From positions 1 through 59,737 of IMG/VR virus record IMGVR_UViG_3300034147_000035: a stretch of DNA of 59,737 bases; one strand, written 5' to 3'. This DNA comes from a virus (Duplodnaviria; Caudoviricetes). Made by a program: the position numbers and the translations under genes. Of the stretch, positions 2,977 through 50,439 are shown piece after piece. The notes under the pieces were generated by a model. That model was not told the DNA's origin, did no database searches, and was given only the letters and a program-made list of their open reading frames with translations. How positions within the stretch are numbered: the first letter of the stretch is position 1; every line of letters starts with the position of its first letter.

Positions 2977-3006
2977 GTAAGGGTAGCAAGCAAAAAGGAT
3001 TACCAC

Positions 3007-3207
3007 ATGCGCTCTGTTCTCATTAACCTGTCTGTGTTCTTTGGTGCCGTAGCCCTCGCTCTCGGGTGGGCTGGGCTGATCTGTCTTAACAGTGGCGAAC
3101 CGGACTTCACCGAGCAGTTTTGGTTCTTTGGGCTAGTGGCCCTGCTCGCGTCCCATGCGTTCGTCATTGGTTACGCGGTTATCTACAAGGAGGATTCACA
3201 TGCGTAA
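3007..3207 (+). CDS. Small two-TM membrane protein (66 aa)
   Basis: Shared leader; two hydrophobic segments. Confidence 0.7.
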   Translation: MRSVLINLSVFFGAVALALGWAGLICLNSGEPDFTEQFWFFGLVALLASHAFVIGYAVIYKEDSHA

Positions 3208-3457
3208 TGGTCTTGCCGCTTTTTCTATCGTTGCCGCCGCTGCTCTCTCGTTCGGGCTAGGGAGTGAGTATGGTATAGACCTTACGCCTGTGGGACAGGA
3301 GCGCAGCCTAGACGTCACAAAGATGCACGTCATAGGACAGGGCTGTGGTGAGACCCCAGAGCAGAAGAAGCGCATCTATGTCGCTCTGGAGGAGGATGAT
3401 CTCCCAGGACCTCTGTGCGATATCGTGTTCGAGCTCGCAGAAAGGGACTATAAATAG
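3200..3457 (+). CDS. Hypothetical exported or membrane-anchored protein (85 aa)
   Basis: AAGGAGG RBS; N-terminal hydrophobic segment. Confidence 0.7.
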   Translation: MRNGLAAFSIVAAAALSFGLGSEYGIDLTPVGQERSLDVTKMHVIGQGCGETPEQKKRIYVALEEDDLPGPLCDIVFELAERDYK

Positions 3458-3458
3458 C

Positions 3459-3487
3459 TTGCGCCGCGATTAGCATGGTAGTATCTT
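3459..3487 (+). promoter_or_regulatory. Sigma70-type early promoter
   Basis: TTGCGC-N17-TATCTT. Confidence 0.6.
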
Positions 3488-3513
3488 AAGAATGTAGCAA
3501 GCAGGAGACTACC

Positions 3514-3759
3514 ATGCTTATTTGGAAGGAAGAGTTGCAGAGTCATATGGAGTTTAGGCTCCTCTCGTATTCTGCCGAGGCGAGCGAACTGGGCATTCGT
3601 CCTGGGGAGCAGTGGCCTATGGAGGTGCAGGTGCCGGGTCTCGGGAACGGTCATAAGTTTATTGCCCGACGGGACATTGTTACGCCTTCCGGCGATTTTG
3701 GCGGTCGTGTGTTCACGCAGAGCCTCGGTTGCTTGACTCTTACCATATTTAACGACTAA
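3514..3759 (+). CDS. Hypothetical early protein (81 aa)
   Basis: Shared leader AGCAAGCAGGAGACTACCATG. Confidence 0.7.
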   Translation: MLIWKEELQSHMEFRLLSYSAEASELGIRPGEQWPMEVQVPGLGNGHKFIARRDIVTPSGDFGGRVFTQSLGCLTLTIFND

Positions 3760-3849
3760 ATGGTCGCTTGACCGGCTCGTCTCGCCAGATGACTTGATGC
3801 GATCGTGTAGCTCTAGATCTGCGCTCTTCTCTCTCAAGACGAGCCGACT

Positions 3850-3896
3850 ACGGACGTAAACGCCAAGATTTGAGCAGCGACCACGGACGTAAACGC
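3850..3896. repeat. Direct repeat ACGGACGTAAACGC x2, 33-bp period
   Basis: Copies at 3850-3863 and 3883-3896. Confidence 0.85.
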
Positions 3897-4146
3897 AGAG
3901 TAGAGCTGGTGGCTTTTGCGGACTCGGCCCACCGCAAACGAGTGTACTACCTGCCTAACACACCGCCAACCCGCCAACCGCCGCTGTGTTACTTAGCTAA
4001 GGCACCACCAGGGGCACGCGCCAACCCGCCCGCGCCGCCAAAATTGCCGCCCGCCAACCCGCCACGGCAACCGCCAGGGGTTAGCGCCAATTTTGCCGCC
4101 CTATATATACGCCGCAATTTATTTTGCGCCTAACCGCATTATTTTG

Positions 4147-4175
4147 TTGCAATGGCAAAAACCCGCGCCTAATAA
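4147..4175 (+). promoter_or_regulatory. Sigma70-type promoter of island genes
   Basis: TTGCAA-N17-TAATAA with A/T tracts upstream. Confidence 0.65.
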
Positions 4176-4231
4176 GGTGCCACGGCAACGGCACTACCGC
4201 CAACCGCCGCAACACAAGGGTTTGTTTATTT

Positions 4232-4744
4232 ATGGCTACCACCAAAAAAACCGCCGCCGCCACCGCCGCCAAGGTTGCTAACATTGCCCGCGCCGCTAGC
4301 GCCATTAACCGCCACGGCCTAACCGCCGCCGCCCGCCTTAGCGCCGCTACTGGCGTTAGCGCCGCCAGCGCCAACCGCTACGCCAAGGGCGCGGTTAACG
4401 TACCCGCCACGGTTAACGCCCTTAGCGCCACGTTTGCCGCTACCACGTTTAGCCTAACCGCCTTGGGCAAGGCGGCGGTTAGCGCCAACGGTTGCATAGG
4501 CAACAAGGGTCAGCCTACTGTTATGGGCTTAACCGCTTGCGGCCTTGCTAATGCGGGCGGCACCGCCACGGGCGCACAAGTGGCCGCCGCTATACTTGGC
4601 AACCCTGCCCTAGTTACCGCCATGCTAGGCACAAAGGCGGGCGGGCACCATGTTATTGCCACCGCCGCCCTAGCCGCCCGTTGGGTACAAGGGTACGTTA
4701 ACGGGCTTTGCCGCCCGCAACATGGGCTAGCAACCCGCGCCTAA
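4232..4744 (+). CDS. Ala-rich basic protein with no Asp/Glu (170 aa), possibly DNA-binding
   Basis: Promoter upstream, AAGGG RBS, TAA stop, hairpin downstream. Confidence 0.7.
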   Translation: MATTKKTAAATAAKVANIARAASAINRHGLTAAARLSAATGVSAASANRYAKGAVNVPATVNALSATFAATTFSLTALGKAAVSANGCIGNKGQPTVMGLTACGLANAGGTATGAQVAAAILGNPALVTAMLGTKAGGHHVIATAALAARWVQGYVNGLCRPQHGLATRA

Positions 4745-4749
4745 CGGCA

Positions 4750-4776
4750 AGGGGCTAGGCTAACCGCCTAGCCCCT
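4750..4776 (+). terminator. GC-rich hairpin after island ORF1
   Basis: AGGGGCTAGGC-taacc-GCCTAGCCCCT; no U-tract. Confidence 0.45.
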
Positions 4777-4810
4777 ACTACCCGCCACTGTATTATAAAG
4801 GTAACACACC

Positions 4811-5044
4811 ATGTACGCGCCTACCACCTGCCAACCCGCCGCCATGCCGCGCCGCGCCGCCTACCTAACCGCCGCCCTTTACCACTATGCGCCCGCGCCC
4901 TATGCGCCGCGCCGCTATGGCAAGGCGGTTAGCATGGCCGCGCAACTGGCAAACTATAGCCCCAAATTGCGCGCCGCCTACCTTGCCCGCCAATGGGCGC
5001 GCATTGCCAACGGGCAAAAGCCAAACTGGCCAAAGCGCCCATAG
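4811..5044 (+). CDS. Small basic protein with no Asp/Glu (77 aa)
   Basis: AAAGGT RBS, ATG start, TAG stop, hairpin downstream. Confidence 0.6.
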   Translation: MYAPTTCQPAAMPRRAAYLTAALYHYAPAPYAPRRYGKAVSMAAQLANYSPKLRAAYLARQWARIANGQKPNWPKRP

Positions 5045-5066
5045 CCGCCCGCCAGGGCCAGCCGCC

Positions 5067-5103
5067 AAGCGGGCGCTACCCAAGTACCGGGTAGCGCCCG
5101 CTT
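5067..5103. repeat. Perfect 15-bp inverted repeat (terminator or cruciform)
   Basis: AAGCGGGCGCTACCC-N7-GGGTAGCGCCCGCTT. Confidence 0.8.
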
Positions 5104-5235
5104 TGCGCTGTAGGGTGCCCCTATGGCCGCCTAAATGCCATGCCGCCTATGGTACCGCCCTATAGGGTACCACCCGCCCCCACCCGGCGCCTCAGTGACT
5201 GCAACACAAAATTCTTCGAAAATTCTCAGATTTAC

Positions 5236-5264
5236 TTGTCAATCCTCTCATCTCATGCTACACT
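5236..5264 (+). promoter_or_regulatory. Sigma70-type promoter, probably giving a leaderless mRNA
   Basis: TTGTCA-N17-TACACT, 6 nt before ATG 5271; no SD. Confidence 0.65.
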
Positions 5265-5270
5265 CACCCC

Positions 5271-5858
5271 ATGCGAATCCTCATATCTTGTGAGTTCTCC
5301 GGCATAGTACGCGACGCCTTCATCCGCCGCTCTGAGACGAACAACCTTAACCACGAAATAATCTCCTGCGACCTCCTACCCTCAGAATCCTCATTCGGCC
5401 CACATCTCCAGACCGACGTCCTAGGACTACTCGACAACGGCTGGGACCTCATGATCGCCTTCCCACCATGCACCTACCTCGCGAGATCAGGTATCCACCG
5501 AAACCGTGACTTCCCATCCCGAGAGCAAAAGACCAGAGACGCAGCCACCTTCTTTAAGCGACTCTGGAACGCCCCCATCCCGAGAATCTGTATAGAGAAC
5601 CCACCGGGAGTCATTCACAAGCTCACAGGAGTCCCGGTGCATCAAACAGTGCATCCTTGGCAGTTCGGCGACCCAATCTCTAAAACTGTCTGCCTACGGC
5701 TCAAAGGCCTCAAGCCGCTACGTCACCGCAAGTATGTCCCGCCTCCCTACACTTCCGCCAATGATCATCCAGCTAGCTATGATCGAGCACAGAACCGCAG
5801 TCGCTTCTTCCCCGGCATCGCAGCGGCTATGGCCGAGCAATGGGGCTCGTACGACTAA
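5271..5858 (+). CDS. Phage-type DNA (cytosine-5) methyltransferase
   Basis: N-terminal ISCEFSG, SCDLLP, catalytic FPPC, ENP, WQFG and C-terminal RS.FFPGIA.AMAEQW motifs. Confidence 0.8.
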   Translation: MRILISCEFSGIVRDAFIRRSETNNLNHEIISCDLLPSESSFGPHLQTDVLGLLDNGWDLMIAFPPCTYLARSGIHRNRDFPSREQKTRDAATFFKRLWNAPIPRICIENPPGVIHKLTGVPVHQTVHPWQFGDPISKTVCLRLKGLKPLRHRKYVPPPYTSANDHPASYDRAQNRSRFFPGIAAAMAEQWGSYD

Positions 5859-5865
5859 ACGCCAC

Positions 5866-5894
5866 TTGCCTCATGAGCTAGTTCCTGCTACACT
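5866..5894 (+). promoter_or_regulatory. Sigma70-type promoter for portal operon
   Basis: TTGCCT-N17-TACACT. Confidence 0.6.
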
Positions 5895-5962
5895 CAGTTT
5901 ACGATGAGGACCACGGCTGAATCGTCCCATGACGATTCACGCCCGAAGAAGGACACCCTCTC

Positions 5963-7627
5963 TTGGCCGATCCCACTGCCGCCGCCTATGCAAGGATCAA
6001 CTCCGGAACCTCAAGGAGTCACACTCCCTACACGATCTTAGCCCCCGGCCTGAACGACATCGTCCCCAACCCATCCTACTCACAACGGTTTGATGCTTGG
6101 GCAACTCTCAGGGATTGTTACGACGGCGAGAAGGTGATCAAGGAGGCTGGTGAGCAATACCTTCCAAAATTATCTGCTCACAGCCCCGACGAGTACAAGA
6201 CGTATAAGCATCGGGCTTATTTCTACAACGCCGTCAGGCGCACACATCGCGGCCTTCACGGATCCTTATTCCGCAAGCCTGTGGAGTTCAGCATCCCGGC
6301 AGGGATGGGAGCTAAGCTGAACATCTGCAATATCACGCAGGACGGGCAGTCCTTTCAAGCGTTTATGCGGATCCTTGGGCATGAGCTGTTGCTCACAGGT
6401 CGATTCGGCATCCTGGCCGACTTCAAGGCCGATCAGGCGAATAGCCCCTACTTAGCCGGATATCTCGCGGAAAACATCTACGCTTGGCGGCTCAAGACGT
6501 TTGAGGACCGGGAAATCGTCGATCGTGTAGTACTCCTTGAGTCCGAGGTGGTTCCCACCGAGTATGGTGCTACGACACAGTTACTCATACGTGTCCTCCG
6601 GCTGGACCCATCCTCCAATGGCTCAGGCAAGATGGTCTACAGCCAGACCATCATTCGGCCGAACCCCACCGATCCTAAGAGTACGCCCACGCGTCAGAAC
6701 ATCGCGGTCAACATTCGCGGCAGGACTCTGGACTATATCCCGTTCGTGTTCTTCAATGCGATGGATCTGCGGGCAGAGTGTGGGCCACCGCCTCTCGAGG
6801 ACATCGCAAGCATAAACGTCAGCCACTTCCAGTCCACCGCTCACTTGGAGCATGGTCGCTTCTATGCGGGGATGCCCACCTATGTCACGGCGGGATCTGG
6901 AGCGAACAAGCTGCCCGGACTTCCCGAGGGGCTCACCAATACGAATCCGCTAACGGTCGGGCCATCTTTTGTTTGGGAGCTAGAGGAAAATGCTAAAGCG
7001 TGGCTGCTTGAGTTCACTGGTCACGGGCTTACCTTCCTTGAGAATGCGGTCGATTCCAAACAGTTACAGATGCAGTCCCTCGGAGGTCGACTCATCAGTT
7101 CAACCCGTCGTGCAGCCGCTATGTCCGACGAAGCGTGGCAACTCCTAGAGACTGGTGACGAAGCCACCCTGATGGATGTCGCTCAGGTATGTGACGAGGG
7201 CGTTACGAAGGCGCTTGCATATCTGGGCGACATCCTAGGGGAGATTCCTGCTGACAGTGTCCATGTCCCGAGCAAGCACAAGATCCTTGTAGAGTTCAAC
7301 AAGGAGTTTGTCCGTTCGGAACTCACCGCTCGCGAGCTAAGAGCTCTCCAGGCTCTGGCCGAGCGTGGTCATATCCCGAACGACGTTATGTACTACGCGC
7401 TTCGTGAGGTTGGCGTCATACCGATTGAGTACAGCTTGGATGACTTCACAGCTCTGCTCAAGAAGGACGAGCAGAAATGGAAGCCACCTCCGCTGCCGGG
7501 AACGCCGGGAGGGCCAGAGCTGCCGCCTACGACGAATCCTCCTAGCGGTACTACAGGAAATCCTGGTCCGGGAGTCCGACCACAGACCGCACCACGACCA
7601 GTTCTATCAGTTCCGCCGAAAGAGTAA
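5963..7627 (+). CDS. Portal protein (DUF4055-like)
   Basis: Y..Y..RA.FYN, G.LFRK, YIPFVF, PPL.DIA..N..H motifs; size and position. Confidence 0.85.
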   Translation: MADPTAAAYARINSGTSRSHTPYTILAPGLNDIVPNPSYSQRFDAWATLRDCYDGEKVIKEAGEQYLPKLSAHSPDEYKTYKHRAYFYNAVRRTHRGLHGSLFRKPVEFSIPAGMGAKLNICNITQDGQSFQAFMRILGHELLLTGRFGILADFKADQANSPYLAGYLAENIYAWRLKTFEDREIVDRVVLLESEVVPTEYGATTQLLIRVLRLDPSSNGSGKMVYSQTIIRPNPTDPKSTPTRQNIAVNIRGRTLDYIPFVFFNAMDLRAECGPPPLEDIASINVSHFQSTAHLEHGRFYAGMPTYVTAGSGANKLPGLPEGLTNTNPLTVGPSFVWELEENAKAWLLEFTGHGLTFLENAVDSKQLQMQSLGGRLISSTRRAAAMSDEAWQLLETGDEATLMDVAQVCDEGVTKALAYLGDILGEIPADSVHVPSKHKILVEFNKEFVRSELTARELRALQALAERGHIPNDVMYYALREVGVIPIEYSLDDFTALLKKDEQKWKPPPLPGTPGGPELPPTTNPPSGTTGNPGPGVRPQTAPRPVLSVPPKE

Positions 7628-7671
7628 CTTCCTACGGCCTATACTCTCATATCAACCCAAAGGAAGTAGAA

Positions 7672-8232
7672 ATGGCAAAGAAAGCCCTACCCAAGTCAGC
7701 TTCTGAAGCTGCTCCGCCGGAAGATGTCAAGACCGACCCGAATACCCCGATGTCAGAGGTTGCTACTCCTGTCGGCACACCGCTGGATCCTGCATTCTTT
7801 GAAGCAGGTGCTCCCCCGGTTCCAACTCAGCTTTGCGCGTATGAATATACGCATACGGTCTGTGGGACTGAGGGTGCTATGGATAATCGTACCTACTATC
7901 TCTGGTATTGTTATCCATGGCTGGTGACCGGTCTGTTCTGCACGAAGTGCAACGCGGCCATCAGAATCGGTGAAGACGGTGAGATGGAATGGTCAGACGG
8001 CTCGGGCAAGTGCATCCTGCCGGATGACGTTCCTATGACGTCGGTTCCTGTGCCTGATTCGATCGGGTTCTTCAATCAGCTGAATCCGCTATGGCCGAGT
8101 CCTGGCGAACATCCTCCTGAAGGAGAGCCAGTAGTTGCTCCAGCAGGAGCTACGACGCAGACCAAGGTGGAAGATCCGGCCAAAGCTCAGGCTCAGGATG
8201 AACTCGCCAAGGCAGAAGCCGACAAGAAGTAG
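7672..8232 (+). CDS. Hypothetical protein with HxxCG...CxxC Zn-ribbon-like domain
   Basis: AAGGAAG RBS; motif shared with next ORF. Confidence 0.7.
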   Translation: MAKKALPKSASEAAPPEDVKTDPNTPMSEVATPVGTPLDPAFFEAGAPPVPTQLCAYEYTHTVCGTEGAMDNRTYYLWYCYPWLVTGLFCTKCNAAIRIGEDGEMEWSDGSGKCILPDDVPMTSVPVPDSIGFFNQLNPLWPSPGEHPPEGEPVVAPAGATTQTKVEDPAKAQAQDELAKAEADKK

Positions 8233-8260
8233 GCCCACTCAAGCAATAAGGAAGTAGACA

Positions 8261-9094
8261 ATGTACAGGACGAAAATTAAGCACAAGACCTGTGGTAGCG
8301 AACTGCGTATGGACCAGGACTTGGAGAACAGGTTCTACTCGCGGCCTCACGTGGTCACGGTCATCTATTGCCCAGTCTGCGATCTCGCGGTTCGGGTTGG
8401 CCCGAACAGCCTTATCATCTGGGCCGATTCTGGTGCGCCTGTGGAGCCGGGTCATCCCGACAACACGCTGCCCGAGAACGAGGTTCCTCCCGGTGAGGTG
8501 GACAACACCTTGCCTGAGGCCGGAGTTCCCGATCAGGGTCTGCCAATTGAAGGAGGCGGTGAAGTGGACAACTCGCTCCCAGACGTTCAGCCTGGAGTAG
8601 ACAACGAGCTTCCAGGCGAGCAGCCTGAGGTAGACAACGAGCTTCCAGGCGAGCAGCCTGAGGTAGACAACGAGCTGCCAGAAGGAGGCGGAGATGCCAG
8701 CACCAAGCCAATCGACCCAGATGCTCCGGCACCGGACAATACTCTCCCCGAGGGCGAAACTCCAGTTGATCCGGGATATGGCGTTGAAGGAGGCTCTGGA
8801 AACAAGCCGGATAACAGCCTCCCTGGAACGCCGACTACGAAGCCGATCGACCCAGACGCTCCAAAACCTGACAATGAACTTCCTGGAGGAGGTGAACCGT
8901 CTGAACCTGACTCTGGAGGCGGCTCTGGTGGATCTCCAGACCAGAGCCTCCCAGGCCAAGGACCTCGTCCAGACAACAGTCTCCCAGGTCAAGGCGGCAA
9001 GCCCGGAGAACGGGACGTAGATCTTGATGTCCATATTGATCGGGATGGTGAAGGCAGTGGCGACAAGCCGAAGCCGAAGCCAAAGCGCCGCTAA
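8261..9094 (+). CDS. Zn-ribbon-like domain plus acidic Pro-rich D(N/Q)xLP repeat tail
   Basis: AAGGAAG RBS; HKTCG...CPVC; 12 repeats. Confidence 0.75.
8588..8681 (+). repeat. 33-bp tandem repeat, about 2.8 copies ([11 protein letters not shown])
   Basis: CAGCCTG(GA/AG)GTAGACAACGAGCT(T/G)CCAG repeated. Confidence 0.9.
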
Positions 9095-9109
9095 TCGGTG
9101 TTACTCAAC

Positions 9110-9140
9110 GGGGGCGGGGAGTCACAAGCTCCTCGCCCTT
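9110..9140 (+). terminator. Putative hairpin terminator
   Basis: GGGGGCGGGGAG...CTCCTCGCCCTT. Confidence 0.45.
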
Positions 9141-9152
9141 GGAGTTAGTACG

Positions 9153-9296
9153 ATGCCCCTGAAGAAAGGTAGTTCAAAGAAGGCTATAAGTGCGAATATC
9201 CGCACTCTTCGGCATGAGGGTAAGCCCCAGAAGCAAGCGATCGCAATCGCTATGTCTAAGGCCGGGAAATCCCGTAAACGCGGGAGAAAGAAATGA
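9153..9296 (+). CDS. Small basic phage protein (MPLKKGSS...QAIAIA type, 47 aa)
   Basis: GGAG RBS; recognisable small head-region protein. Confidence 0.8.
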
Positions 9297-9388
9297 AGTA
9301 CATGACCCAGCGCAACGCGACGAAGCTAGTGTACGCCATTGGTCTCACGATCGTTGGCTTGGTTCTCATCTATTTAGTTACTCAGTAG
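9293..9388 (+). CDS. 31-aa single-TM peptide
   Basis: ATGA overlap, GGGAG RBS; [31 protein letters not shown]. Confidence 0.5.
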
Positions 9389-9401
9389 TGTAAATAGGCA
9401 C

Positions 9402-9430
9402 TTGTCAGGCTTTAGCCAGCGTGTTACTCT
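9402..9430 (+). promoter_or_regulatory. Sigma70-type promoter for scaffold gene
   Basis: TTGTCA-N17-TACTCT. Confidence 0.55.
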
Positions 9431-9492
9431 CTCCTTGTCCATGGAGGGTCTGTGGATCTTGACCGGCGGGGTCGGTCACGCTGGAGACTGAT

Positions 9493-10284
9493 ATGCCTGA
9501 ATTGATCTTTGATGCTCAGGACGCTGTTCCTGAACCAATCCGCTCCATCGCAGTTGAGAAAGAAGGCAAGTGGGTCGCGAATGTCGTGCCCAAGGCCGAG
9601 CTGGACGACTTCCGCAATCGGAACGTTGAGCTCTCTCGCGAGCGCGATGCAGCCACCGGAATTTTCGGTCGGCTAACCCCTCTCGGTTTTGATCCTGCGA
9701 AGGTGGACGAGTTCGTCACTGGTTACAGTGAGCTTCGGGACATCAAGCAGCAGGTGGACGACGGGAAGCTCGTCGCTGACACTTCTCTCGCTGAAGCCAT
9801 TGAGGCCAAGACCGGCGAGATGAAGAAGGGTTACGAAACTCAGATCGGCGGCTTGCAGAATGAGGTCGCAACCTACAAGGGTGAGAACGAGAAGCTGACC
9901 AATCGGCTGAATCGTTCCATCATTGATCAACAGGTGATGCAAGCCATCAACGATCCGAAGAGCGGTGCATTGCCGGAAGCCACTCGTCAGATTCTGCGCG
10001 AAGCGCATGACACCTTCCAGATCGGTGAGAACGAAGCTCTTATCCCGATGGACAATAACGGCCATGTGATTTATGGTGGCGACGGTGCTACACCGATGAC
10101 TCCAGTGGAATGGCTGAAGAAGCTGGCTGAAACGAGCCCGTTCTTCTTCAAGGGTTCGCAGGGTGGTGGAGCTGGCGGTGGTCAGGGTCCGGGAAGCGGG
10201 CCACTCACTGCGGCGCAGATTGCGGCTATGTCGCCTGAAGAGAGGATGACCTATGGACGTGAACACGGGATGACAGGAAGTTAG
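9493..10284 (+). CDS. Capsid scaffolding protein
   Basis: Coiled coil, Gly-rich linker and short C-terminal helix; upstream of MCP. Confidence 0.75.
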   Translation: MPELIFDAQDAVPEPIRSIAVEKEGKWVANVVPKAELDDFRNRNVELSRERDAATGIFGRLTPLGFDPAKVDEFVTGYSELRDIKQQVDDGKLVADTSLAEAIEAKTGEMKKGYETQIGGLQNEVATYKGENEKLTNRLNRSIIDQQVMQAINDPKSGALPEATRQILREAHDTFQIGENEALIPMDNNGHVIYGGDGATPMTPVEWLKKLAETSPFFFKGSQGGGAGGGQGPGSGPLTAAQIAAMSPEERMTYGREHGMTGS

Positions 10285-10345
10285 ACTGAGGATGGGGTCG
10301 TAGATCCTCGTCCTGCGGCCCCAACTTCATAGAAGGCGGTAGCCA

Positions 10346-10579
10346 GTGTCGGCGGAAAATTTCGTCGTCGGTAATCCTAAGGGCAACAACGTAGATCTCG
10401 TGATCACGTTCGTTGCCCGAGATGGTACTCGCAAGAAGTTTAAGACTCTTAGGCCGGGAGAGGCGTGTCGCTGTGACAAAAGAGAAGTCTTAGTTACTGA
10501 AGCGCCGCGCCCTCCTCGCCTCACAATGCAAAGTGATGGTAGTTTTGTCGCAGACCGGTCGAAAGGACCGAGGCGTTAG
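10346..10579 (+). CDS. Hypothetical protein (77 aa)
   Basis: GTG start with AAGGCGG RBS. Confidence 0.5.
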   Translation: MSAENFVVGNPKGNNVDLVITFVARDGTRKKFKTLRPGEACRCDKREVLVTEAPRPPRLTMQSDGSFVADRSKGPRR

Positions 10580-10590
10580 GGCAATGAGTG

Positions 10591-10701
10591 ATGAGGAACG
10601 AGCGGCGGGCGTGCATTGGGATCGCGACTATTATCCTGGTAGTTTTCTTTCTGGCCCTATACGGCCTCACTATGGGGTCTCAGGATGTTATGGCACCCTA
10701 G
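10591..10701 (+). CDS. 36-aa single-TM peptide
   Basis: MRNERRACIGIATIILVVFFLALYGLTMGSQDVMAP; below ORF-track cutoff. Confidence 0.4.
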   Translation: MRNERRACIGIATIILVVFFLALYGLTMGSQDVMAP

Positions 10702-10832
10702 TACCCACGCGGGCGCGCGAGAGGTCTCATGAACGTTACAGGCGTTCTAGGAAAGCTGTGAAGGCTAGCAGGTACCCGCCACGGCCAAGGCCAGAGATCT
10801 GTTCCCAGTCTCCAATTATTTTGCCACGTCAC

Positions 10833-10861
10833 TTGTCAAACTTCAGAGGCGGGTGTATGGA
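10833..10861 (+). promoter_or_regulatory. Sigma70-type promoter for capsid operon
   Basis: TTGTCA-N17-TATGGA with upstream A/T tract. Confidence 0.5.
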
Positions 10862-10928
10862 GGGAGGGTGGGCCTCTTCATGGAGGTTTGCTTCCGCGGC
10901 TCGGCCGTGACAGACGAGGAATTTAGCC

Positions 10929-11855
10929 ATGCCGATGACTCTGGTAGAAGCCGCCAAGCTTGAGACTCGCAATCTCGTACGCAGCGGTGTCATTGAACAA
11001 TTTGCTCGCACCTCGGAAATTCTGCGGGTTCTCCCGTTCCAGGATATCCAGGGCAACGCGCTCGCCTATAACCGCGAAGAAGTCCTTCCGGGCGTCGCCT
11101 TCCGTGGCGTCAATGAGGGATATCCGGAAAGCGTGGGTGTCATCAACCCCGCGACCGAGACCCTGTACATCGCGGGCGGTGATCTGGACGTCGATCGGTT
11201 CATCATTCAGACGATGGGAGCCGGTGTTCGTTCAACCCACGAAAATATGAAGATCAAGGCACTCGCCCAAGCATGGACTACCAAGTTCATTAAGGGCGAT
11301 ACTACGATTCAGCCACGCGAGTTCGACGGCCTCCAGGCCCGACTCACTGGCTACAACCTCATCCCGGCGGGCAGCACGTCCGGCGGCGACCCTCTCAAGC
11401 TTGAGATTCTCGACGAGGCCATTGATCGGGTGACTAACCCGACCCATATCCTCATGAGTCGCGCCCTACGTCGCAAGTTCAAAGGTGCGCGGAACAATCC
11501 AGCAGTCGCCGGCTCTATCACTCTCGACAAGGACGATTTCGGTCGGCCGGTTGACGTGTACAACGGGCTTCCACTTCTCACCACTTACGGTGATGCCGTA
11601 TCGCCCGATCCGCTCGGTTTCAATGAAGCCGGTCCTGGTGGCGGAAGCACTTCCACTTCGCTCTATGTTCTCAGCATGGGAACGGATGCAGTCTCCGGCA
11701 TCCAAAATGGCGGGATGGATGTTCGCGATCTCGGGGAGCTGGACACGATGCCTCTATGGAGGACTCGCGTCGAGTGGTACTCGGGTCTCGGCATCTTCAA
11801 CGGTGCCGCTGCCGTTCGTGTCTGGGGCATCTCCAATGCTCCGATCGTAGCTTAA
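10929..11855 (+). CDS. Major capsid protein
   Basis: TL.EAAKL, LPF..I.GNAL.YNRE..LPG.AFR.VNE, GGDLDVD, EFDGL, RTRVEWY motifs. Confidence 0.9.
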   Translation: MPMTLVEAAKLETRNLVRSGVIEQFARTSEILRVLPFQDIQGNALAYNREEVLPGVAFRGVNEGYPESVGVINPATETLYIAGGDLDVDRFIIQTMGAGVRSTHENMKIKALAQAWTTKFIKGDTTIQPREFDGLQARLTGYNLIPAGSTSGGDPLKLEILDEAIDRVTNPTHILMSRALRRKFKGARNNPAVAGSITLDKDDFGRPVDVYNGLPLLTTYGDAVSPDPLGFNEAGPGGGSTSTSLYVLSMGTDAVSGIQNGGMDVRDLGELDTMPLWRTRVEWYSGLGIFNGAAAVRVWGISNAPIVA

Positions 11856-11881
11856 TCGGAGAGCCCGAGAGGAGATTTGAT

Positions 11882-12325
11882 ATGTCCGTAAAGCGCAATC
11901 AACTAGATGCCACTATGGATGCGGCCACTCAGCTGAAAGATGCGGGTGCGGCGATTGCTAGTGGCGCAGGAACGGTCGGTGGTGCTGCTCGCGTTGTCAA
12001 CGTCGGGCCAGCCATTCTCAGTGCCGTGTTCACGGTGGATATCATCGCGCAGACGATCGATGCTACGGCGGCGTACGACATTCGCCTCCAGGCTTCGTCG
12101 GATCCGTCGTTCGCCACGGACGTGACCATCGTCGCCAATGTTCAGTCGGTTCTCGTCGCTACGGGCGGTGAAGATCGTCCGGGTATTGGTCGTCGGTCGG
12201 TCCCGTTCAACAACATCGGCGAAGATGGTGCCCCGAAGGCTTATCTTCGGGTGTATCACCAGATTGCTGGTACCACGCCATCGATCAACTACGCGGCTAT
12301 GATCACGCAGAACCCGCTGCCATAA
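11882..12325 (+). CDS. Putative capsid decoration or minor head protein
   Basis: AGGAG RBS; beta-rich; directly after MCP. Confidence 0.6.
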   Translation: MSVKRNQLDATMDAATQLKDAGAAIASGAGTVGGAARVVNVGPAILSAVFTVDIIAQTIDATAAYDIRLQASSDPSFATDVTIVANVQSVLVATGGEDRPGIGRRSVPFNNIGEDGAPKAYLRVYHQIAGTTPSINYAAMITQNPLP

Positions 12326-12350
12326 GTCGGCTGGGATAAGGAGTAATAAT

Positions 12351-12899
12351 ATGAGCACTGTCCAAGAAACGCTCATTCCTGCCTCGATGGTTCCCGGCTT
12401 GGTGACGATTGAGGATGGGGAGGGCAATCGCAAGAACGTCTATCCCATTGATGCCAAGGAGCTCCTTGCATCCGGCGAGTTCACGCTCGTTGAAAATGGC
12501 GCGATCGAGGCTTCCCGCATGGCGGCGACGCCACTGCGCTCTGGCTATGCTTCGGGTATTCCGAGCGAGCAGATTATCGCCGAAATCTCCGGTGTTGAAG
12601 GTCGCATCCTAGCGGCTGCCGATGAAGATGCCGCTGCCGAGGTCAAGGAAGCTGGTGACAGTCCCGATGCCAATCGCGAGCCGAGTGCCGTTCCAGCGGT
12701 CGGCTACACGGCGATGCAGGATGCTTCCGGTGCCGCGAATATGCCTCCGGCCGAAGAGGGCGATAAGGTTGAGCACAAGGGCGCGGCTGCTCGTGCTCGC
12801 GGTGACGACCGTGGCGGCAAGCCGACCCAGATGCCGGCTCAGCGCACTCCTGCTTCCAGTGGAATCGGTGGTGACAAGAAGGACGACGACAAAAGGTAA
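12351..12899 (+). CDS. Hypothetical virion-associated protein
   Basis: AAGGAG RBS; position in head operon. Confidence 0.7.
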   Translation: MSTVQETLIPASMVPGLVTIEDGEGNRKNVYPIDAKELLASGEFTLVENGAIEASRMAATPLRSGYASGIPSEQIIAEISGVEGRILAAADEDAAAEVKEAGDSPDANREPSAVPAVGYTAMQDASGAANMPPAEEGDKVEHKGAAARARGDDRGGKPTQMPAQRTPASSGIGGDKKDDDKR

Positions 12900-12924
12900 G
12901 TTTTCCGCCAGCCTGCGGAGCTTG

Positions 12925-12961
12925 ACGTCCGTCGCAGTTCCGCGCTGCGGCGGACGTTTTC
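12925..12961 (+). terminator. Rho-independent terminator
   Basis: ACGTCCGTCGCAG...CTGCGGCGGACGT followed by T-run. Confidence 0.7.
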
Positions 12962-12981
12962 TCAAGAAGGAGCTAGACGGA

Positions 12982-35457: not shown

Positions 35458-35469
35458 TGAGTAGGAATT

Positions 35470-47319: not shown

Positions 47320-47341
47320 TACACCTTCCGTGGGTGGGACT

Positions 47342-47375
47342 GGGAGGCGGGTGTCTTTGGCACTCGCCTCTCTTT
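47342..47375 (+). terminator. Rho-independent terminator
   Basis: GGGAGGCGGGTGTC-TTT-GGCACTCGCCTCTC then TTT. Confidence 0.6.
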
Positions 47376-47390
47376 CGTTGGAGACTCGCT

Positions 47391-48278
47391 GTGAACCAAG
47401 AGAATTTTGAGACTTTCGTATTCTACCTTAATGAACGCGAGAAAATTCGCCAGATGCGCGAGGAAGGATCTCCAGGTCCCTGGACACTTGACCCAATCTT
47501 AGGTCGCTACAAGTTCACAAACATACGACGTTCCGATGATCGCACTACCCGCTGGCTGAAGAAGAATTGGTACGATCCTAACCGCGATGCTGATCTGGAA
47601 ATGCTCGTTATTAACTGCGCTCTCGCCAGATACTTTGGCAGCATTGAATTCTGTTCTGCTGTCGGTTTTCAGCAGAGTTGGAATCCCGAGTTTCTTTTGC
47701 AGACAGCGAATGATAGACTCAGCCGGGGTGAGAAGGTATTCACTGGAGCCTACATTATTACGAATGCTGGAAGCACCGACCCCAAGCAAAATGTCGTAGT
47801 TTGTCAGTTCCTCACACCACTTAGGTTTCGCGCCGCCCGCGTGGTAGAGCTCTGTCAGCGTAATCGCTGGCAAGATGTCGCAGAGTTTCTTCAGCAGCAG
47901 CCGGGGATCGGCCCGTTCATGTCCAAGGAGATTGCGCTGGATATGATGTTGACTCCTCTCCTGGAAAATGCAACCGATAAGCTAACATGGAGTCCCGCAG
48001 GTCCTGGGGCGATTCGTGGCTTGAACCGTCTGCATGATCGCCCGTTGCAAGCGCCTTTGTCTCAACCGAAGGCTGTAGCTGAGATGATAGACCTTCTCGG
48101 GCTGCTCAGCACAGGAGGTCACCTCCGACCATACATGCCGACTCCAGGCGTTGATTACGGCGTTACAGATGTTCAGTTCAGCCTTTGTGAACTAGACAAA
48201 TATCTCCGAGTCAAGAATGGTGAAGGACGTCCACGCTCTGGTTACGATTGGCGAAAGGCAAAACCGTACACGGTCTGA
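47391..48278 (+). CDS. aGPT-Pplase clade 1 / 5-hmdU DNA kinase helical-domain-like protein
   Basis: ERE.IR..R..G..PWT.DPIL..YKFTNIRR.DDRTT, GPGA.RGL and LCE.DKY.R motifs. Confidence 0.8.
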   Translation: MNQENFETFVFYLNEREKIRQMREEGSPGPWTLDPILGRYKFTNIRRSDDRTTRWLKKNWYDPNRDADLEMLVINCALARYFGSIEFCSAVGFQQSWNPEFLLQTANDRLSRGEKVFTGAYIITNAGSTDPKQNVVVCQFLTPLRFRAARVVELCQRNRWQDVAEFLQQQPGIGPFMSKEIALDMMLTPLLENATDKLTWSPAGPGAIRGLNRLHDRPLQAPLSQPKAVAEMIDLLGLLSTGGHLRPYMPTPGVDYGVTDVQFSLCELDKYLRVKNGEGRPRSGYDWRKAKPYTV

Positions 48279-48549: not shown

Positions 48550-49362
48550 ATGCAAATATTCATTCCTACTCGTGACAGGGTAAATGCTCAATTTACATGG
48601 GACAATCTCACTCCTAGGCTGCAAGCGGCTACCCGCTTAGTGGTACCGGCGGATGAGGTCTCGAGCCATCTCGAGCGTTCTCGAAACGTGGTAGCCCGCC
48701 CCGCTGGCCCCCTTAGCGGGGTACGCCAATGGATAGTCGATGAGCTTGCTACGCCGGGTCAGCCCGTGATTATGCTTGACGATGATCTAGCATTCTTTGT
48801 TAGGAAAGACCCTCGAGCCCATAATCTCCGTCCGGCGGGAGCCGACGTTGAACGAATTATGGACTGGCTAGATGAGATGGTTCAGCCGAATTTCTCCAAC
48901 ATGAGTTATGTCCACGCTGGACTCTCACCACGACAAGGAAATAACTGGTGCTACCCCGACAAGCATCAGACTATCCAGCGAATGAACGCTGTTCATTGCG
49001 TGAACCCTGAAGCACTCCGTCACTATGGTATTCGCTATGATGCCGTTGACATGATGGAAGACTACCACGTTGTCCTCAGTCTCTTTGAAGTTGGGGAGAA
49101 GAACATTGTTCTTACGGACGCGGCTTGGGATCAGTGTAAGGGGAGTGGCGCTCCCGGAGGTTTTACTCATTACCGTACAAAAGAGACTCAGGCCGCCGCG
49201 TCGCATCGCCTCGCGGAACTACATCCTCTTTCGGTTAAGGTTGTTGAGAAGGAGCCAAAGACGGGAAGTGGTGGGTTCGCTGGTAAAAGAACTGATGTCC
49301 GTGTCCAGTGGAAGCAAGCCTACCAGAGAGGCACGCGGAATCCCACCTACAATATGAGGTGA
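48550..49362 (+). CDS. GT-A fold DNA glycosyltransferase (TAGT/GREB1/JGT-like)
   Basis: IFIPTR.R, RQWI, MLDDDL (DxD), EDYH and GG...R motifs. Confidence 0.7.
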   Translation: MQIFIPTRDRVNAQFTWDNLTPRLQAATRLVVPADEVSSHLERSRNVVARPAGPLSGVRQWIVDELATPGQPVIMLDDDLAFFVRKDPRAHNLRPAGADVERIMDWLDEMVQPNFSNMSYVHAGLSPRQGNNWCYPDKHQTIQRMNAVHCVNPEALRHYGIRYDAVDMMEDYHVVLSLFEVGEKNIVLTDAAWDQCKGSGAPGGFTHYRTKETQAAASHRLAELHPLSVKVVEKEPKTGSGGFAGKRTDVRVQWKQAYQRGTRNPTYNMR

Positions 49363-49365
49363 TTC

Positions 49366-50439
49366 ATGTACGAATTCGACATTGATTGCCCGAATGAGGG
49401 ACTCGGCCGTGTGATGCGAGTGCTGAGAGAAAATGGCATCACGACTACCAGTAGGAACGGCCCGGTCATTCGCTTCCCTGAGCCAGTAGCTCTTCAATAC
49501 TCAAACCCTCGGCGCCGAATCCTGGACAATCCTATTCGGGACGCTAATCCTTTCTTTCATATGTTTGAGACTCTGTGGATGCTGGCAGGTTTGAATACTG
49601 TCGCACCACTAGAGCTCTATAATTCTGGGATGAAGCAGTACTCCGATGATGGAGTGACATTCGCAGCACCTTACGGATATCGTTGGCGAAAGCGATGGGG
49701 CGACCAGATTCTCAAGGTTGTAGAGAAACTGAAGAAGAATCCTGAAGATCGTCGCATTGTCTTACAGATGTGGGATCCCAAGGAATTATTCAAGGATGAA
49801 GGTCTAGATTTCGCTTGTAATCAACAGGTCTTGTTTGATACACGACCTACGACGATTCATCCCAGTGGCTACTACCTTGACATGACAGTCACCAACCGTA
49901 GCAATGATCTTATCTATGGTGCGATGGGTAGCAATCTCTACCATTTCTCTTTCCTGCATGAATTTATCGCGCTTCATACAGGGCTAGGACTTGGGACCTA
50001 CTATCAGATCTCCAAGAATATGCACTTGTATCTTGAGAATCCCGCTTCCAAGCACTGCTGGGAACATATGCTGGAGATTGAAAAGGGGCCGAAATCTCCA
50101 GAGGAAGATCTTAGTCTGAGCGAGTTCGGAATCCCTCTTGAAATAGAACCGTATAGGAATTTCGTCAACTACAACAAGATCACAGATGATGTCCTTGCTG
50201 ACCCAAGTTGGCTGACTACGGTTGCGAAACCGATATGTGAAGCGTATCGAGTCTATAAGTATAAGATGCTTACTGGTCTTGATATTGAGTTTGAGCTGAG
50301 GATTGAGTTTGCTTTAGCGGCTCTAGAACATTGCAGATCTGATGCTCTAGGACTAAATTGCGAAGCATGGTTTCAGCGAAGACTTGAGAATTATAGCCGG
50401 AATAAGATTACCATAGTAGAAGCGGAGAGACCAGATTGA
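49366..50439 (+). CDS. Thymidylate-synthase-family protein, probable dUMP hydroxymethylase
   Basis: SRNG, NPFFH..E, YGYRWR, RRIVLQMWD, catalytic Cys (FACN), RSNDLIYGAMGSN (dUMP-type Asn) and H.Y motifs. Confidence 0.85.
   Translation: MYEFDIDCPNEGLGRVMRVLRENGITTTSRNGPVIRFPEPVALQYSNPRRRILDNPIRDANPFFHMFETLWMLAGLNTVAPLELYNSGMKQYSDDGVTFAAPYGYRWRKRWGDQILKVVEKLKKNPEDRRIVLQMWDPKELFKDEGLDFACNQQVLFDTRPTTIHPSGYYLDMTVTNRSNDLIYGAMGSNLYHFSFLHEFIALHTGLGLGTYYQISKNMHLYLENPASKHCWEHMLEIEKGPKSPEEDLSLSEFGIPLEIEPYRNFVNYNKITDDVLADPSWLTTVAKPICEAYRVYKYKMLTGLDIEFELRIEFALAALEHCRSDALGLNCEAWFQRRLENYSRNKITIVEAERPD

What the first reader, a model, noticed from the sequence alone, without database searches (positions are those of the whole stretch)
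4147..5044. Island genes are built without GA/TC: no Asp or Glu, GA-free RBSs, no TGA
Seen: a near-consensus promoter (TTGCAA-N17-TAATAA) precedes 170-aa and 77-aa ORFs with no Asp or Glu (all GAN codons). Ser is encoded only by AGY. The RBSs are AAGGG and AAAGGT rather than the AGGAG used elsewhere, and the stops are TAA and TAG. Inference: the DNA-level constraint has reshaped two expressed proteins, which may be pioneer factors that make the rest of the modified genome readable or protected.
Basis: partly seen in the sequence, partly recalled or inferred. Interest (0 to 1): 0.72.

Follow-up and report, generated by a model that had tools for sequence, protein, structure and literature searches.

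The report
Acid-free genes in a TC-free island
A sediment phage keeps one small two-gene cassette completely free of the DNA dinucleotide GA/TC, probably the site its own DNA-decorating enzymes act on, so the two conserved proteins made from it contain no aspartate or glutamate.

Summary
Window 3941-5192 (1,252 bp) has one GA/TC, against 14.2% of positions elsewhere. ORF1 (4232-4744, 170 aa) and ORF2 (4811-5044, 77 aa) have no Asp or Glu, Ser only as AGC, GA-free ribosome sites and TAA/TAG stops. Only "near-consensus promoter" is overstated (7 of 12 matches).

Both ORFs are genuine genes. ORF1 has 52 homologues and ORF2 has 28, with about twice as many third-position changes. ORF1 folds at pLDDT 94 with no structural neighbour. 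All 9 distinct loci with DNA carry a 1.0-1.45 kb GA/TC-free island around ORF1, always upstream of the portal gene. There is one island in each of 4 long records. The families hold 2 and 0 acidic residues in 9,067 and 2,245.

All four records carry a thymidine-modification module: a dUMP-hydroxymethylase homologue, a TAGT glycosyltransferase and a PF18723 protein. Published phage T-modifying enzymes act at TG or TC.

My best reading (0.5) is that the island is an expression cassette that cannot be decorated. A "pioneer factor" role is untested. No homologue lies outside an island, so "reshaped" cannot be told from "born there". I found no report of this in print.

The parts
3941..5192 (.). GA/TC-free island. 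One exception: TC at 4510.
   Evidence: Equivalent islands occur in 9 of 9 distinct related loci.
3805..3834 (+). Terminator-like hairpin plus T-rich tail that closes the upstream unit, just before the island.
   Evidence: Consensus scan only.
3845..3896 (+). Two 19-nt direct repeats (3845-3863 and 3878-3896, 95% alike) just outside the 5' edge.
   Evidence: family D12. L005 shows a similar pair before its island.
4147..4175 (+). Sigma-70-like promoter candidate TTGCAA-N17-TAATAA. It matches 7 of 12 positions, and its -35 avoids the GA of TTGACA.
   Evidence: the scan did not report it. TTGCCA or TTGCAA sits at a comparable place upstream of ORF1 in W/L007, L003, L005, L008 and L009 (read by eye).
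4216..4220 (+). GA-free Shine-Dalgarno core AAGGG, 11 nt before the ORF1 ATG.
   Evidence: AAAGG(T/C) is conserved before ORF1 in L003, L005 and L008.
4232..4744 (+). ORF1: 170 aa, no D/E, K+R 14, 28% Ala. Its N-terminal half looks HTH-like by eye only.
4750..4776 (+). 11-bp G+C hairpin with no T tail, 6 nt after the ORF1 stop.
   Evidence: z = -3.4. A 9-13 bp hairpin of different sequence sits at the same place in 5 of 5 spacers folded.
4797..4802 (+). GA-free Shine-Dalgarno core AAAGGT before ORF2.
   Evidence: AAAGG(T/C) is seen in W, L007, L003, L005, L008 and L009.
4811..5044 (+). ORF2: 77 aa, no D/E, K+R 12. It has an invariant HYAP.PY motif.
5063..5107 (+). Terminator-like hairpin (19-nt arms, 95% complementary) followed by TTTGCGCTGT.
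   Evidence: I5; z = -5.0. An equivalent hairpin occurs in 4 of 4 regions folded. The scan did not call it, because the tail has too few T.
5149..5196 (+). Conserved 3' boundary block: ATGGTACC ... GCC|TCAGT. The first TC falls in the same alignment column in all 7 loci.
   Evidence: invariant columns in 7 of 7 sequences aligned.
5236..5264 (+). Promoter-like TTGTCA-N17-TACACT (9 of 12, with TG) in a TC/GA-rich block right after the island. It heads the MTase-like and portal genes.
49366..50439 (+). Thymidylate-synthase-family protein, 36% identical to the M6 homologue. It keeps Asn in ...NRSNDLIYGAMGSN..., so it is dUMP-hydroxymethylase-like.
48550..49362 (+). TAGT-family (TET-associated) glycosyltransferase homologue.
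   Evidence: PF20691, 1.2e-8. Present in 4 of 4 records.
47334..48278 (+). PF18723 (HMUDK_hel) protein. It is the homologue of the M6 gene that follows the P-loop kinase and has no Walker A motif itself.

Best explanation
The island is a self-contained expression cassette that is kept free of the site of the phage's own thymidine hypermodification.

Shown:
- The cassette is insulated. An upstream terminator-like site precedes it. It has its own promoter-like site with a GA-free -35, GA-free Shine-Dalgarno cores, two genes under protein-level purifying selection, a conserved hairpin between them and a terminator-like hairpin after them.
- The exclusion of GA/TC is symmetrical, total and conserved across the clade.
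- The phage carries a 5-hydroxymethyl-dUMP-type synthase homologue, a dUTPase/dCTP-deaminase-fold protein, an HD deoxynucleotidase, a TAGT-family glycosyltransferase and a PF18723 protein.

Inferred:
- T is replaced by 5-hmU and a subset is then decorated after replication, probably glycosylated, at T in 5'-TC-3'. Other phage T-modifying enzymes act at TG or TC.
- DNA without TC on either strand cannot be decorated. Promoter and template therefore stay 'plain' both in incoming virion DNA and in replicated DNA, and can be read by host RNA polymerase whatever the state of the rest of the genome. Most likely these are the first genes read after entry.
- The cost is a reduced codon table: no GAN, TCN, NGA or NTC, and no G|A or T|C codon junctions. 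That gives basic, Ala-rich proteins without Asp or Glu.
- ORF1 (a new fold with an HTH-like N-terminal half) and ORF2 (a conserved proline/tyrosine motif plus a helix) probably bind nucleic acid or the transcription machinery. What they do is not known.
For: - The desert is far beyond chance.
- 9 of 9 distinct loci that encode an ORF1 relative have a 1,032-1,454 bp island. These are W, L003, L005 (L004 and L006 give the same figures and are counted once), L007, L008, L009, L010, L011 (cut by the contig end) and L023. Six have no exception and three have one.
- There is exactly one island in each of W, G001 (a circular assembly of 91,890 bp), G002 and G003. It always lies 0.1-1.9 kb upstream of the portal gene.
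- Coding evidence: third-position differences are about twice those at the first and second positions in all 28 ORF1 pairs and 15 ORF2 pairs. W against L007 gives 4 synonymous and 0 non-synonymous changes in ORF1, and 8 and 2 in ORF2.
- The ORF1 model has pLDDT 94.2 and pTM 0.86.
- The families hold 2 D/E in 9,067 residues (53 proteins) and 0 in 2,245 residues (29 proteins).
- The modification module is conserved: PF18723 in 4 of 4 records and TAGT in 4 of 4. The TS homologue is M6-like. The whole module is syntenic in W, G001, G002 and G003.
- GA and TC are over-represented outside the island, with observed/expected 1.13 and 1.20.
- Published dinucleotide contexts, from passages I read: TG/TC in M6, ViI and phiW-14 (PMC6449724); TG in phage 15599 (PMC13458397); NTC for the phage T-dioxygenase 5mYOX97 (PMC13229309).
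- Analogy only: glucosyl-hmU (base J) is involved in regulating RNA polymerase II termination in kinetoplastids (PMC4150806; only the start of the abstract, seen in the listing).
Against: - No chemical or signal-level evidence shows that this phage's DNA is modified, or that TC is the context.
- The lineage lacks detectable homologues of the M6 P-loop 5-hmdU DNA kinase, aGPT-Pplase2, PLP and rSAM enzymes (tblastn, E<=0.01). The pathway is therefore not the characterised one.
- Phage M6, which does hypermodify T, has no dinucleotide-free island. Hypermodification alone does not require one.
- From my own knowledge: T4, phiW-14 and other hypermodified DNAs are transcribed by host polymerase. All other genes of this phage are full of TC and must still be transcribed.
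- The promoter matches only 7 of 12 positions.
- There are no expression data and no timing data.
Confidence: 0.5

Rival explanations
1. The island is first-entering or otherwise exposed DNA that must carry no target for a nuclease or defence system. That system could be the phage's own host-DNA-degrading nuclease, a modification-dependent host nuclease that would cut decorated DNA, or CRISPR systems with TTC-type PAMs. The two genes would be pre-early counter-defence or take-over genes, in the manner of the T5 first-step-transfer region or the T7 leading end.
For: - The cassette is insulated and has its own promoter.
- The 3' boundary is invariant and precise and could be a terminus or a stop signal.
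- The portal is distantly T5-like or DSS3P8-like.
- In one run a contig breaks at 3914 and at 5208/5211. In another, the island forms a contig of its own, 3881-5370.
- An unmodified, motif-free stretch would escape both classical and modification-dependent cutting (inference).
Against: - The physical genome ends are unknown. All assembled contigs run through both island edges: W, L007, L009 and G001-G003.
- TerL lies 44 kb away in G001.
- Avoiding a PAM or a restriction site needs only longer words to be absent, not every NTC and GAN.
- Common sites such as GGCC, GCGC and GGTACC remain in the island.
- The proteins have no acidic residues, so they cannot be Ocr/ArdA-type DNA mimics.
Confidence: 0.2
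2. The GA/TC-free state serves a cis-acting DNA function that needs about 1 kb of undecorated duplex, for example packaging or ejection, a replication start, or a binding platform. The ORFs would be passengers that arose in, or adapted to, a stop-poor, constrained stretch.
For: - Gene content beyond ORF1 and ORF2 varies. L007 has an extra 57-codon ORF, and G003 has an extra 32-codon hydrophobic ORF.
- Non-coding parts of the island obey the constraint as strictly as coding parts.
- Island length is kept within 1.03-1.45 kb.
- The 3' block is conserved.
- No homologue exists outside islands.
Against: - The ORF1+ORF2 pair is conserved in all 8 loci where the region downstream of ORF1 is present. 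It is under clear purifying selection and has conserved translation signals, which argues that the genes are the point.
- The 5' edge is not conserved in sequence.
- The island is G+C-rich (63%), which is unlike an origin.
Confidence: 0.12
3. The constraint acts on the mRNA. For example, it could provide escape from a RegB-like endoribonuclease that cuts GGAG, or from a GA-specific toxin RNase.
For: GA-free Shine-Dalgarno cores replace the GGAG/AGGA-type sites seen before 22 of 31 other genes.
Against: TC, the complement of GA, is excluded just as completely on the sense strand. The exclusion also covers about 290 nt upstream of the promoter/5' region and about 150 nt after the terminator-like hairpin. 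An RNA-level constraint would be one-stranded and confined to the transcript.
Confidence: 0.03
4. It is chance, an assembly artefact or a sequencing artefact.
For: None found.
Against: - Simulations give at most 82 bp.
- Independent assemblies carry the island: 9 distinct loci, and 22 runs of 23 studies hold at least half of the sampled words.
- The coding signal is clean and the fold is confident.
Confidence: 0.01

Closest known systems
5-hmdU-derived thymidine hypermodification of phages M6, ViI, phiW-14, SP10, PaMx11 and 15599
   Same: - A TS-family dUMP-hydroxymethylase homologue, 36% identical to that of M6.
- A PF18723 protein homologous to the M6 gene next to the kinase.
- An M6-like gene order (helicase ... 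TS ... polymerase).
- Published decoration of T at a dinucleotide, TG or TC.
   Different: - No homologue of the P-loop DNA kinase, aGPT-Pplase2, PLP or rSAM enzymes. A TAGT glycosyltransferase is present instead.
- M6 has no dinucleotide-free island.
- The modified base itself has not been observed here.
Phage T-dioxygenase / TET plus TAGT glycosylation pathways
   Same: - A TAGT-family glycosyltransferase.
- A documented NTC preference of one phage T-dioxygenase (PMC13229309), which shows that TC can be a phage modification context.
   Different: No Tet_JBP match in 4 of 4 records. The control genomes were also silent, so this is inconclusive. The hydroxymethyl group here probably comes from the nucleotide pool.
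Restriction-site avoidance and leading-end early genes (T7 gene 0.3 region, T5 first-step-transfer region); recalled, not read here
   Same: A short, self-sufficient early-type cassette whose DNA lacks particular target words.
   Different: - Here a whole dinucleotide is excluded on both strands over more than 1 kb, to the point of removing two amino acids.
- The position at a genome end is not shown.
- The products are basic, not acidic mimics.
Unmethylated CpG islands, and base J flanking transcription units in kinetoplastids (analogy)
   Same: A modification-poor stretch around an expressed unit within a modified genome. Glucosyl-hmU is involved in regulating RNA polymerase II termination (PMC4150806, start of the abstract in the listing).
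   Different: - CpG islands keep the motif but escape the enzyme. Here the motif itself is deleted from the sequence, coding regions included.
- The organisms and enzymes are different.
7-deazaguanine (dPreQ0) insertion at GA by DpdA in phage CAjan; recalled, not read here
   Same: GA is the recalled target dinucleotide.
   Different: No TGT/DpdA-family gene in 0 of 4 records, while the control rang in 14 of 14 genomes.

Membership tests
Helix-turn-helix (XRE/HTH_3-type) regulators, for ORF1 | A significant match to an HTH profile or to a solved HTH protein. | tested here: not met
   - Pfam: 0 families at E<=10.
- PHROGs and NCBIfam: 0.
- PDB profile search: 0 at E<=10.
- Foldseek best E 5.4 (PDB) and 2.2 (BFVD).
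- The only hints are Atlas feature scores of 0.83-0.84, below the tool's 0.9 bar, and my reading of residues about 29-52 and helices 32-40 and 44-50.
5-hmdU thymidine hypermodification pathway (Lee et al.; Table 1 of PMC8989533 seen) | A dUMP hydroxymethylase (TS homologue with Asn at the base-specifying position). | tested here: met
   PF00303 at 4.9e-19. 36% identity to the M6 homologue. The motif NRSNDLIYGAMGSN aligns with the M6 motif NRSNDLIWGAYGAN. Activity was not assayed.
5-hmdU thymidine hypermodification pathway | A P-loop 5-hmdU DNA kinase. | tested here: not met
   tblastn with M6 37854-38417 (which has a Walker A motif) gave no hit in W, G001, G002 or G003 at E<=0.01. There is no Walker A motif in the module's genes. 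A very distant kinase could have been missed.
5-hmdU thymidine hypermodification pathway | A clade-2 aGPT-Pplase group transferase. | tested here: not met
   The M6 neighbours used as queries, including 34574-35449, gave no hit in the 4 records. A TAGT glycosyltransferase is present instead.
5-hmdU thymidine hypermodification pathway | A modified thymidine in virion DNA, at a defined dinucleotide. | not testable with these tools
   Only contigs of public runs were available. No native-DNA signal or mass spectrometry was available.
Leading-end / first-step-transfer early region | Location at the physical genome end that enters first. | not testable with these tools
   G001 is a circular assembly with a 127-bp overlap. 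Contigs cross both island edges. No raw reads were available for terminus mapping.
Ocr/ArdA-type anti-restriction DNA mimics | A strongly acidic surface. | tested here: not met
   D+E = 0 in both proteins. K+R is 14 and 12.
Intrinsic terminator, after ORF2 | A G+C hairpin followed directly by a T run. | tested here: inconclusive
   The hairpin is strong (z = -5.0) and present in 4 of 4 relatives folded. The tail is TTTGCGCT or TTTGCTTTGCGC, and the scan, which needs 5 T in 8, did not call it.
7-deazaguanine (DpdA) DNA modification | A TGT-family DNA transglycosylase gene. | tested here: not met
   PF01702 in 0 of 4 records. The control rang in 14 of 14 genomes.

The most novel reading that the evidence does not exclude
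The island is a modification-proof 'boot sector'. ORF1 and ORF2 are acid-free proteins, ORF1 with a fold that has no known neighbour. They arose de novo inside a stretch where TGA cannot occur and open frames are cheap. They act as readers of the decorated thymidine (functional analogues of SPO1 TF1 or the J-binding proteins). In that role they license host RNA polymerase to read decorated DNA, or they switch on the TC-rich promoter that starts exactly at the island's conserved 3' edge. DNA chemistry would then have dictated a 17-amino-acid alphabet (no Asp or Glu in either protein, and no Phe in ORF2) for a working protein pair.
Probability: 0.15. Interest if true: 0.9.

Novelty: categorically new. 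Interest (0 to 1): 0.82.

Why it matters
- It would be a natural case in which a DNA-level rule, the total exclusion of one dinucleotide on both strands, removes two amino acids and about a fifth of the codon table from functional, well-folded proteins. That bears on minimal amino-acid alphabets and on de novo gene birth.
- It points to a way for hypermodified phages to keep part of the genome chemically plain. This would be a sequence-encoded counterpart of an unmethylated island, and it offers a direct handle on how DNA hypermodification interacts with transcription, defence and infection timing.
- It gives a purely computational read-out of an unknown enzyme's sequence context (TC). It also suggests a search image, dinucleotide-free islands, for finding modified phages and their contexts in metagenomes.

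Tried and rejected
- Nucleotide searches of the island and of 5200-25000 against GenBank phages found no match. ORF1 by tblastn against the same collection found no match.
- The portal as a single query in viral contigs found none.
Loci of the distant, slightly acidic relatives (A3) in viral contigs: none. Whether P0092 (5 Asp) and P0089 (2 Glu) sit in relaxed islands stays open.
- Family libraries for ORF1 and ORF2 gave nothing: Pfam even at E<=10, PHROGs and NCBIfam. PDB profile searches gave nothing. Rfam over 3000-6500 gave only sub-threshold chance-level hits.
- The ORF2 Atlas search gave no usable hit. The ORF2 model is only moderate (pLDDT 67), so I did not fold-search it.
- ORF1+ORF2 complex prediction gave no verdict.
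- No RNA holder was listed. A 167-nt contig identical to 4918-5084 lies in a library labelled RNA-Seq cDNA, which the tool marks as probably DNA. That is not usable as evidence of expression.
- Contig depths are not interpretable: the island contig stands at 13.1 against 3-7 for its flanks in X8, but not in X10.
- RNAalifold on the ORF1-ORF2 spacers mis-registered the length-variable hairpins, so I folded them singly instead.
- The adjacent MTase-like gene (5271-5858) is rejected as the cause. It is absent from G001, which still has the island.
- DpdA/7-deazaguanine is rejected as the cause.
- I tested whether T-hypermodifying phages generally have such islands. M6 has none. Only this one cultured phage was checked.
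- Literature searches for a prior description returned nothing relevant.
Supplementary files were not requested. The supplementary restriction tables of PMC6449724 and PMC13458397 may refine the TG-versus-TC preferences.
Full report
WHAT IS THERE. The window is a whole 59,737-bp virus record, linear and estimated 82% complete. It is a siphovirus-type phage: portal 5963-7627, scaffold, major head protein, a 1,862-aa tape measure, and a 3,832-aa fibre-like giant. A DNA-metabolism block follows at 43-57 kb. Between 3941 and 5192 the dinucleotide GA and its complement TC occur once (TC at 4510). Elsewhere they start at 14.2% of positions, and the next longest gap is 49 bp. In 200 first-order Markov simulations the longest gap had a mean of 53 bp and a maximum of 82. 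The edges are abrupt: 19, then 0, then 20 GA/TC per 100 nt. No other dinucleotide class behaves this way.

ORF1 (4232-4744, 170 aa, TAA) and ORF2 (4811-5044, 77 aa, TAG) have no Asp or Glu. Ser is encoded only by AGC, and CGA, AGA, GGA, TTC, ATC, CTC and GTC are all absent. In 31 other genes that I picked by hand, D+E is 11.5%, 9 of 31 stops are TGA, and 655 of 1,007 Ser codons are TCN. The ribosome sites are AAGGG and AAAGGT. By my reading, 22 of 31 other genes show GGAG, AGGA or GAGG upstream. The single TC is a synonymous GGT|CAG junction that reads GGC in the 94%-identical relative L007. The promoter TTGCAA-N17-TAATAA exists, but it matches only 7 of 12 consensus positions and the scan does not report it. 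Calling it 'near-consensus' is too strong. The amino-acid, codon and stop observations are all consequences of the one DNA rule. Because TGA cannot occur, open frames are abundant on both strands and prove nothing by themselves.

ARE THE ORFS GENES? Yes.
- ORF1 has 52 homologues at 52-77% identity (alignment A1).
- ORF2 has 28 homologues at 44-85% identity (A2).
- I made codon alignments of 8 ORF1 copies and 6 ORF2 copies. L004 and L006 were left out as duplicates of L005. For ORF2, L010 was left out as too divergent and L011 because it is cut. In every pair, third-position differences were about twice those at the first or second position. W against L007 gave 4 synonymous and 0 non-synonymous changes in ORF1, and 8 and 2 in ORF2.
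- AlphaFold2 on A1 gives pLDDT 94.2 and pTM 0.86. Foldseek finds no neighbour in the PDB (best E 5.4) or BFVD (best E 2.2). Profile searches of PDB sequences find nothing.
- ORF2 is modelled only in its C-terminal helices (pLDDT 67). Its invariant N-terminal HYAP.PY motif looks like a docking motif, which is inference.

THE ISLAND IS A CLADE FEATURE.
- Every locus that encodes an ORF1 relative and whose DNA I could read has a GA/TC-free stretch around it: L003 1,102 bp; L004/L005/L006 1,070 bp; L007 1,454 bp; L008 1,032 bp; L009 1,107 bp; L010 588+474 bp; L011 at least 680 bp (cut by the contig end); L023 821+393 bp. That is 9 of 9 distinct sequences. Six have no exception and three have one.
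- Each of the four long records (W; G001, a circular assembly of 91,890 bp with a 127-bp overlap; G002; G003) has exactly one island. It lies 0.1-1.9 kb upstream of the portal gene.
- The ORF1+ORF2 pair is present in all 8 loci that extend past ORF1. Extras vary: L007 has a 57-codon ORF between the two genes, and G003 has a 32-codon hydrophobic ORF.
- Across the families, acidic residues number 2 in 9,067 residues (ORF1, 53 proteins) and 0 in 2,245 residues (ORF2, 29 proteins).
- A profile search of 1.84 billion representatives found only 12 clusters. The most distant have a few acidic residues: P0092 has 5 Asp and P0089 has 2 Glu. I could not retrieve their DNA.
- No homologue lies in cultured phages or in bacterial and archaeal genomes.
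No relative is known from unconstrained DNA, and 'reshaped' cannot be told from 'born in the island'.

ANATOMY OF THE CASSETTE.
- A terminator-like site (3805-3834) and two 19-nt direct repeats (3845-3896) precede the island.
- Inside, a -35-like TTGCAA or TTGCCA with an A/T-rich hexamer about 17 nt downstream recurs in W/L007, L003, L005, L008 and L009 (read by eye). TTGACA itself is impossible without GA.
- The Shine-Dalgarno cores are AAGG(G/T/C), that is AGGAGG without its GA.
- A 9-13 bp G+C hairpin without a T tail follows the ORF1 stop in 5 of 5 spacers folded. The stems differ in sequence, and z runs from -2.5 to -3.6. The L007, L010 and L023 spacers were not folded.
- An 11-15 bp hairpin followed by TTTGC(G/T)... 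follows ORF2 in 4 of 4 regions folded, with z from -2.6 to -5.0.
- The 3' edge is strikingly conserved. ATGGTACC and GCC|TCAGT are invariant in 7 of 7 aligned loci, and the first TC falls in the same column (L011 and L023 were not included).
- A TC/GA-rich, A/T-rich block begins at once after the edge. It holds the only promoter the scan calls: TTGTCA-N17-TACACT, 9 of 12, at 5236-5264. This promoter heads the MTase-like and portal genes.

WHY GA/TC? Symmetry, meaning both GA and TC are absent in transcribed and untranscribed parts, points to double-stranded DNA recognition and not to RNA. All four records share a syntenic module:
- a TS-family protein 36% identical to the dUMP-hydroxymethylase-type enzyme of phage M6, with the same Asn-containing motif;
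- a dUTPase/dCTP-deaminase-fold protein and an HD 5'-deoxynucleotidase;
- a TAGT-family glycosyltransferase, in 4 of 4 records;
- a PF18723 protein, in 4 of 4 records. Its relatives sit in M6/YuA-like phages, PaMx11, Bordetella phages, phiW-14 and SP-10.

The PF18723 protein is the homologue of the M6 gene next to the P-loop kinase, not of the kinase itself. Homologues of the M6 kinase, aGPT-Pplase2, PLP and rSAM enzymes are not detectable (gene roles from Table 1 of PMC8989533, passages). The chemistry is therefore probably a different decoration of 5-hmU, glycosylation being the obvious candidate.

Published work shows that such enzymes act at dinucleotides. I read passages from three papers: TG/TC in M6, ViI and phiW-14 (PMC6449724); TG in phage 15599 (PMC13458397); NTC for a phage T-dioxygenase (PMC13229309).

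Two further points fit. GA and TC are over-represented outside the island, at 1.13 and 1.20 observed/expected. DpdA, whose recalled context is GA, is absent in 0 of 4 records, with a working control. The adjacent MTase-like gene is missing from G001, which still has an island, so it is not the cause.

MECHANISM I COMMIT TO (0.5). TC is the context of the phage's own thymidine decoration. A cassette without TC on either strand cannot be decorated, so its promoter and template remain readable by the host machinery whatever the state of the rest of the genome. Most likely these are the first genes read after entry.

- Shown: the desert, its conservation, the reality of the genes, the insulated signals and the module.
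- Inferred: that the DNA is modified, that TC is the site, that decoration impedes reading, and the timing.
- Against:
  - M6 hypermodifies T without any island.
  - Other hypermodified DNAs are transcribed by host polymerase (my own knowledge).
  - The rest of this genome is full of TC yet must be expressed.
  - No expression data exist (one search lists no RNA holder).
- The analogy with base J in kinetoplastids (PMC4150806, start of the abstract only) makes a transcriptional effect of glycosyl-hmU plausible. It does not prove it.

RIVALS.
(a) An exposed or first-entering segment that must lack a nuclease or defence target, in the manner of T5 or T7 (0.2). It is attractive because of the invariant 3' edge and the contig breaks at 3914 and 5208/5211 in one run. 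However, the genome ends are unknown, all assemblies cross both edges, TerL is 44 kb away in G001, and excluding every NTC and GAN is more than any known target needs.
(b) A cis-acting stretch of undecorated DNA with passenger genes (0.12). The strict conservation and selection on ORF1 and ORF2 argue against it.
(c) An RNA-level constraint (0.03). The symmetry contradicts it.
(d) An artefact (0.01).

NOVELTY. Three full-text searches found no description of a dinucleotide-free island in a phage, or of proteins made acid-free by a DNA rule. The closest known ideas share the logic but not the form. They are site avoidance in early regions, unmethylated CpG islands, and J-flanked transcription units.

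Noticed in passing
window 57773-57847 (+): A tRNA gene with anticodon CTA, which reads UAG and which ARAGORN labels tRNA-Pyl. ORF2 and 6 of the 31 other genes I tabulated end in TAG. The ORF2 stop is TAA in some relatives, so programmed read-through of ORF2 is not conserved.
   Followed up: partly
window 13308-24806 (+): A single 3,832-aa ORF with many repeated tail-fibre-type matches and one peptidase-type match. No homologue in G001 by tblastn.
   Followed up: partly
window 5271-5858 (+): A 195-aa DNA-methyltransferase-like protein (phrog_757, 3.6e-42) with FPPC and ENPPG motifs and no long target-recognition region. It is present next to the island in W and G002 and absent from G001.
   Followed up: partly
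window 5197-5264 (+): A TC/GA-rich and A/T-rich block with repeated AAAATTCT and TTCGAA words, followed by a TTGTCA/TACACT promoter. It begins at the very first base after the island and is conserved in relatives. If TC is the decorated site, this promoter would be densely decorated, which could make it a timing switch.
   Followed up: no
L007 1196-1460; L023 2050-2158: Islands of relatives carry extra small GA/TC-free ORFs. L007 has a 57-codon Arg/Ala-rich ORF between ORF1 and ORF2. G003 has a 32-codon hydrophobic ORF, and the ribosome-site-plus-start sequence of ORF1 is repeated before its ORF2.
   Followed up: partly
window 3881-5370 (runs X8, X10): In run X8 the island forms a separate 1,490-bp contig with word depth 13.1, against about 3-7 for flanking contigs. 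In run X10 contigs break at 3914, 4218 and 5208/5211 without a depth excess. This could reflect strain mixtures or better sequencing of undecorated DNA. It cannot be interpreted from contigs.
   Followed up: no
window 58617-59555 (+): A 312-aa protein with a hydrophobic N-terminus and long Ser/Gly/Gln/Asp-rich low-complexity runs. It has no family match.
   Followed up: no
proteins P0092 and P0089 (no DNA available): The most distant ORF1-family representatives contain 5 Asp and 2 Glu respectively. Their islands may be relaxed or may use a different excluded word.
   Followed up: partly
G001 35469-36905: The large terminase lies beside the ribonucleotide reductase, 44 kb from the portal gene and the island. 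The window record ends just before the corresponding place, which probably explains its missing terminase.
   Followed up: partly
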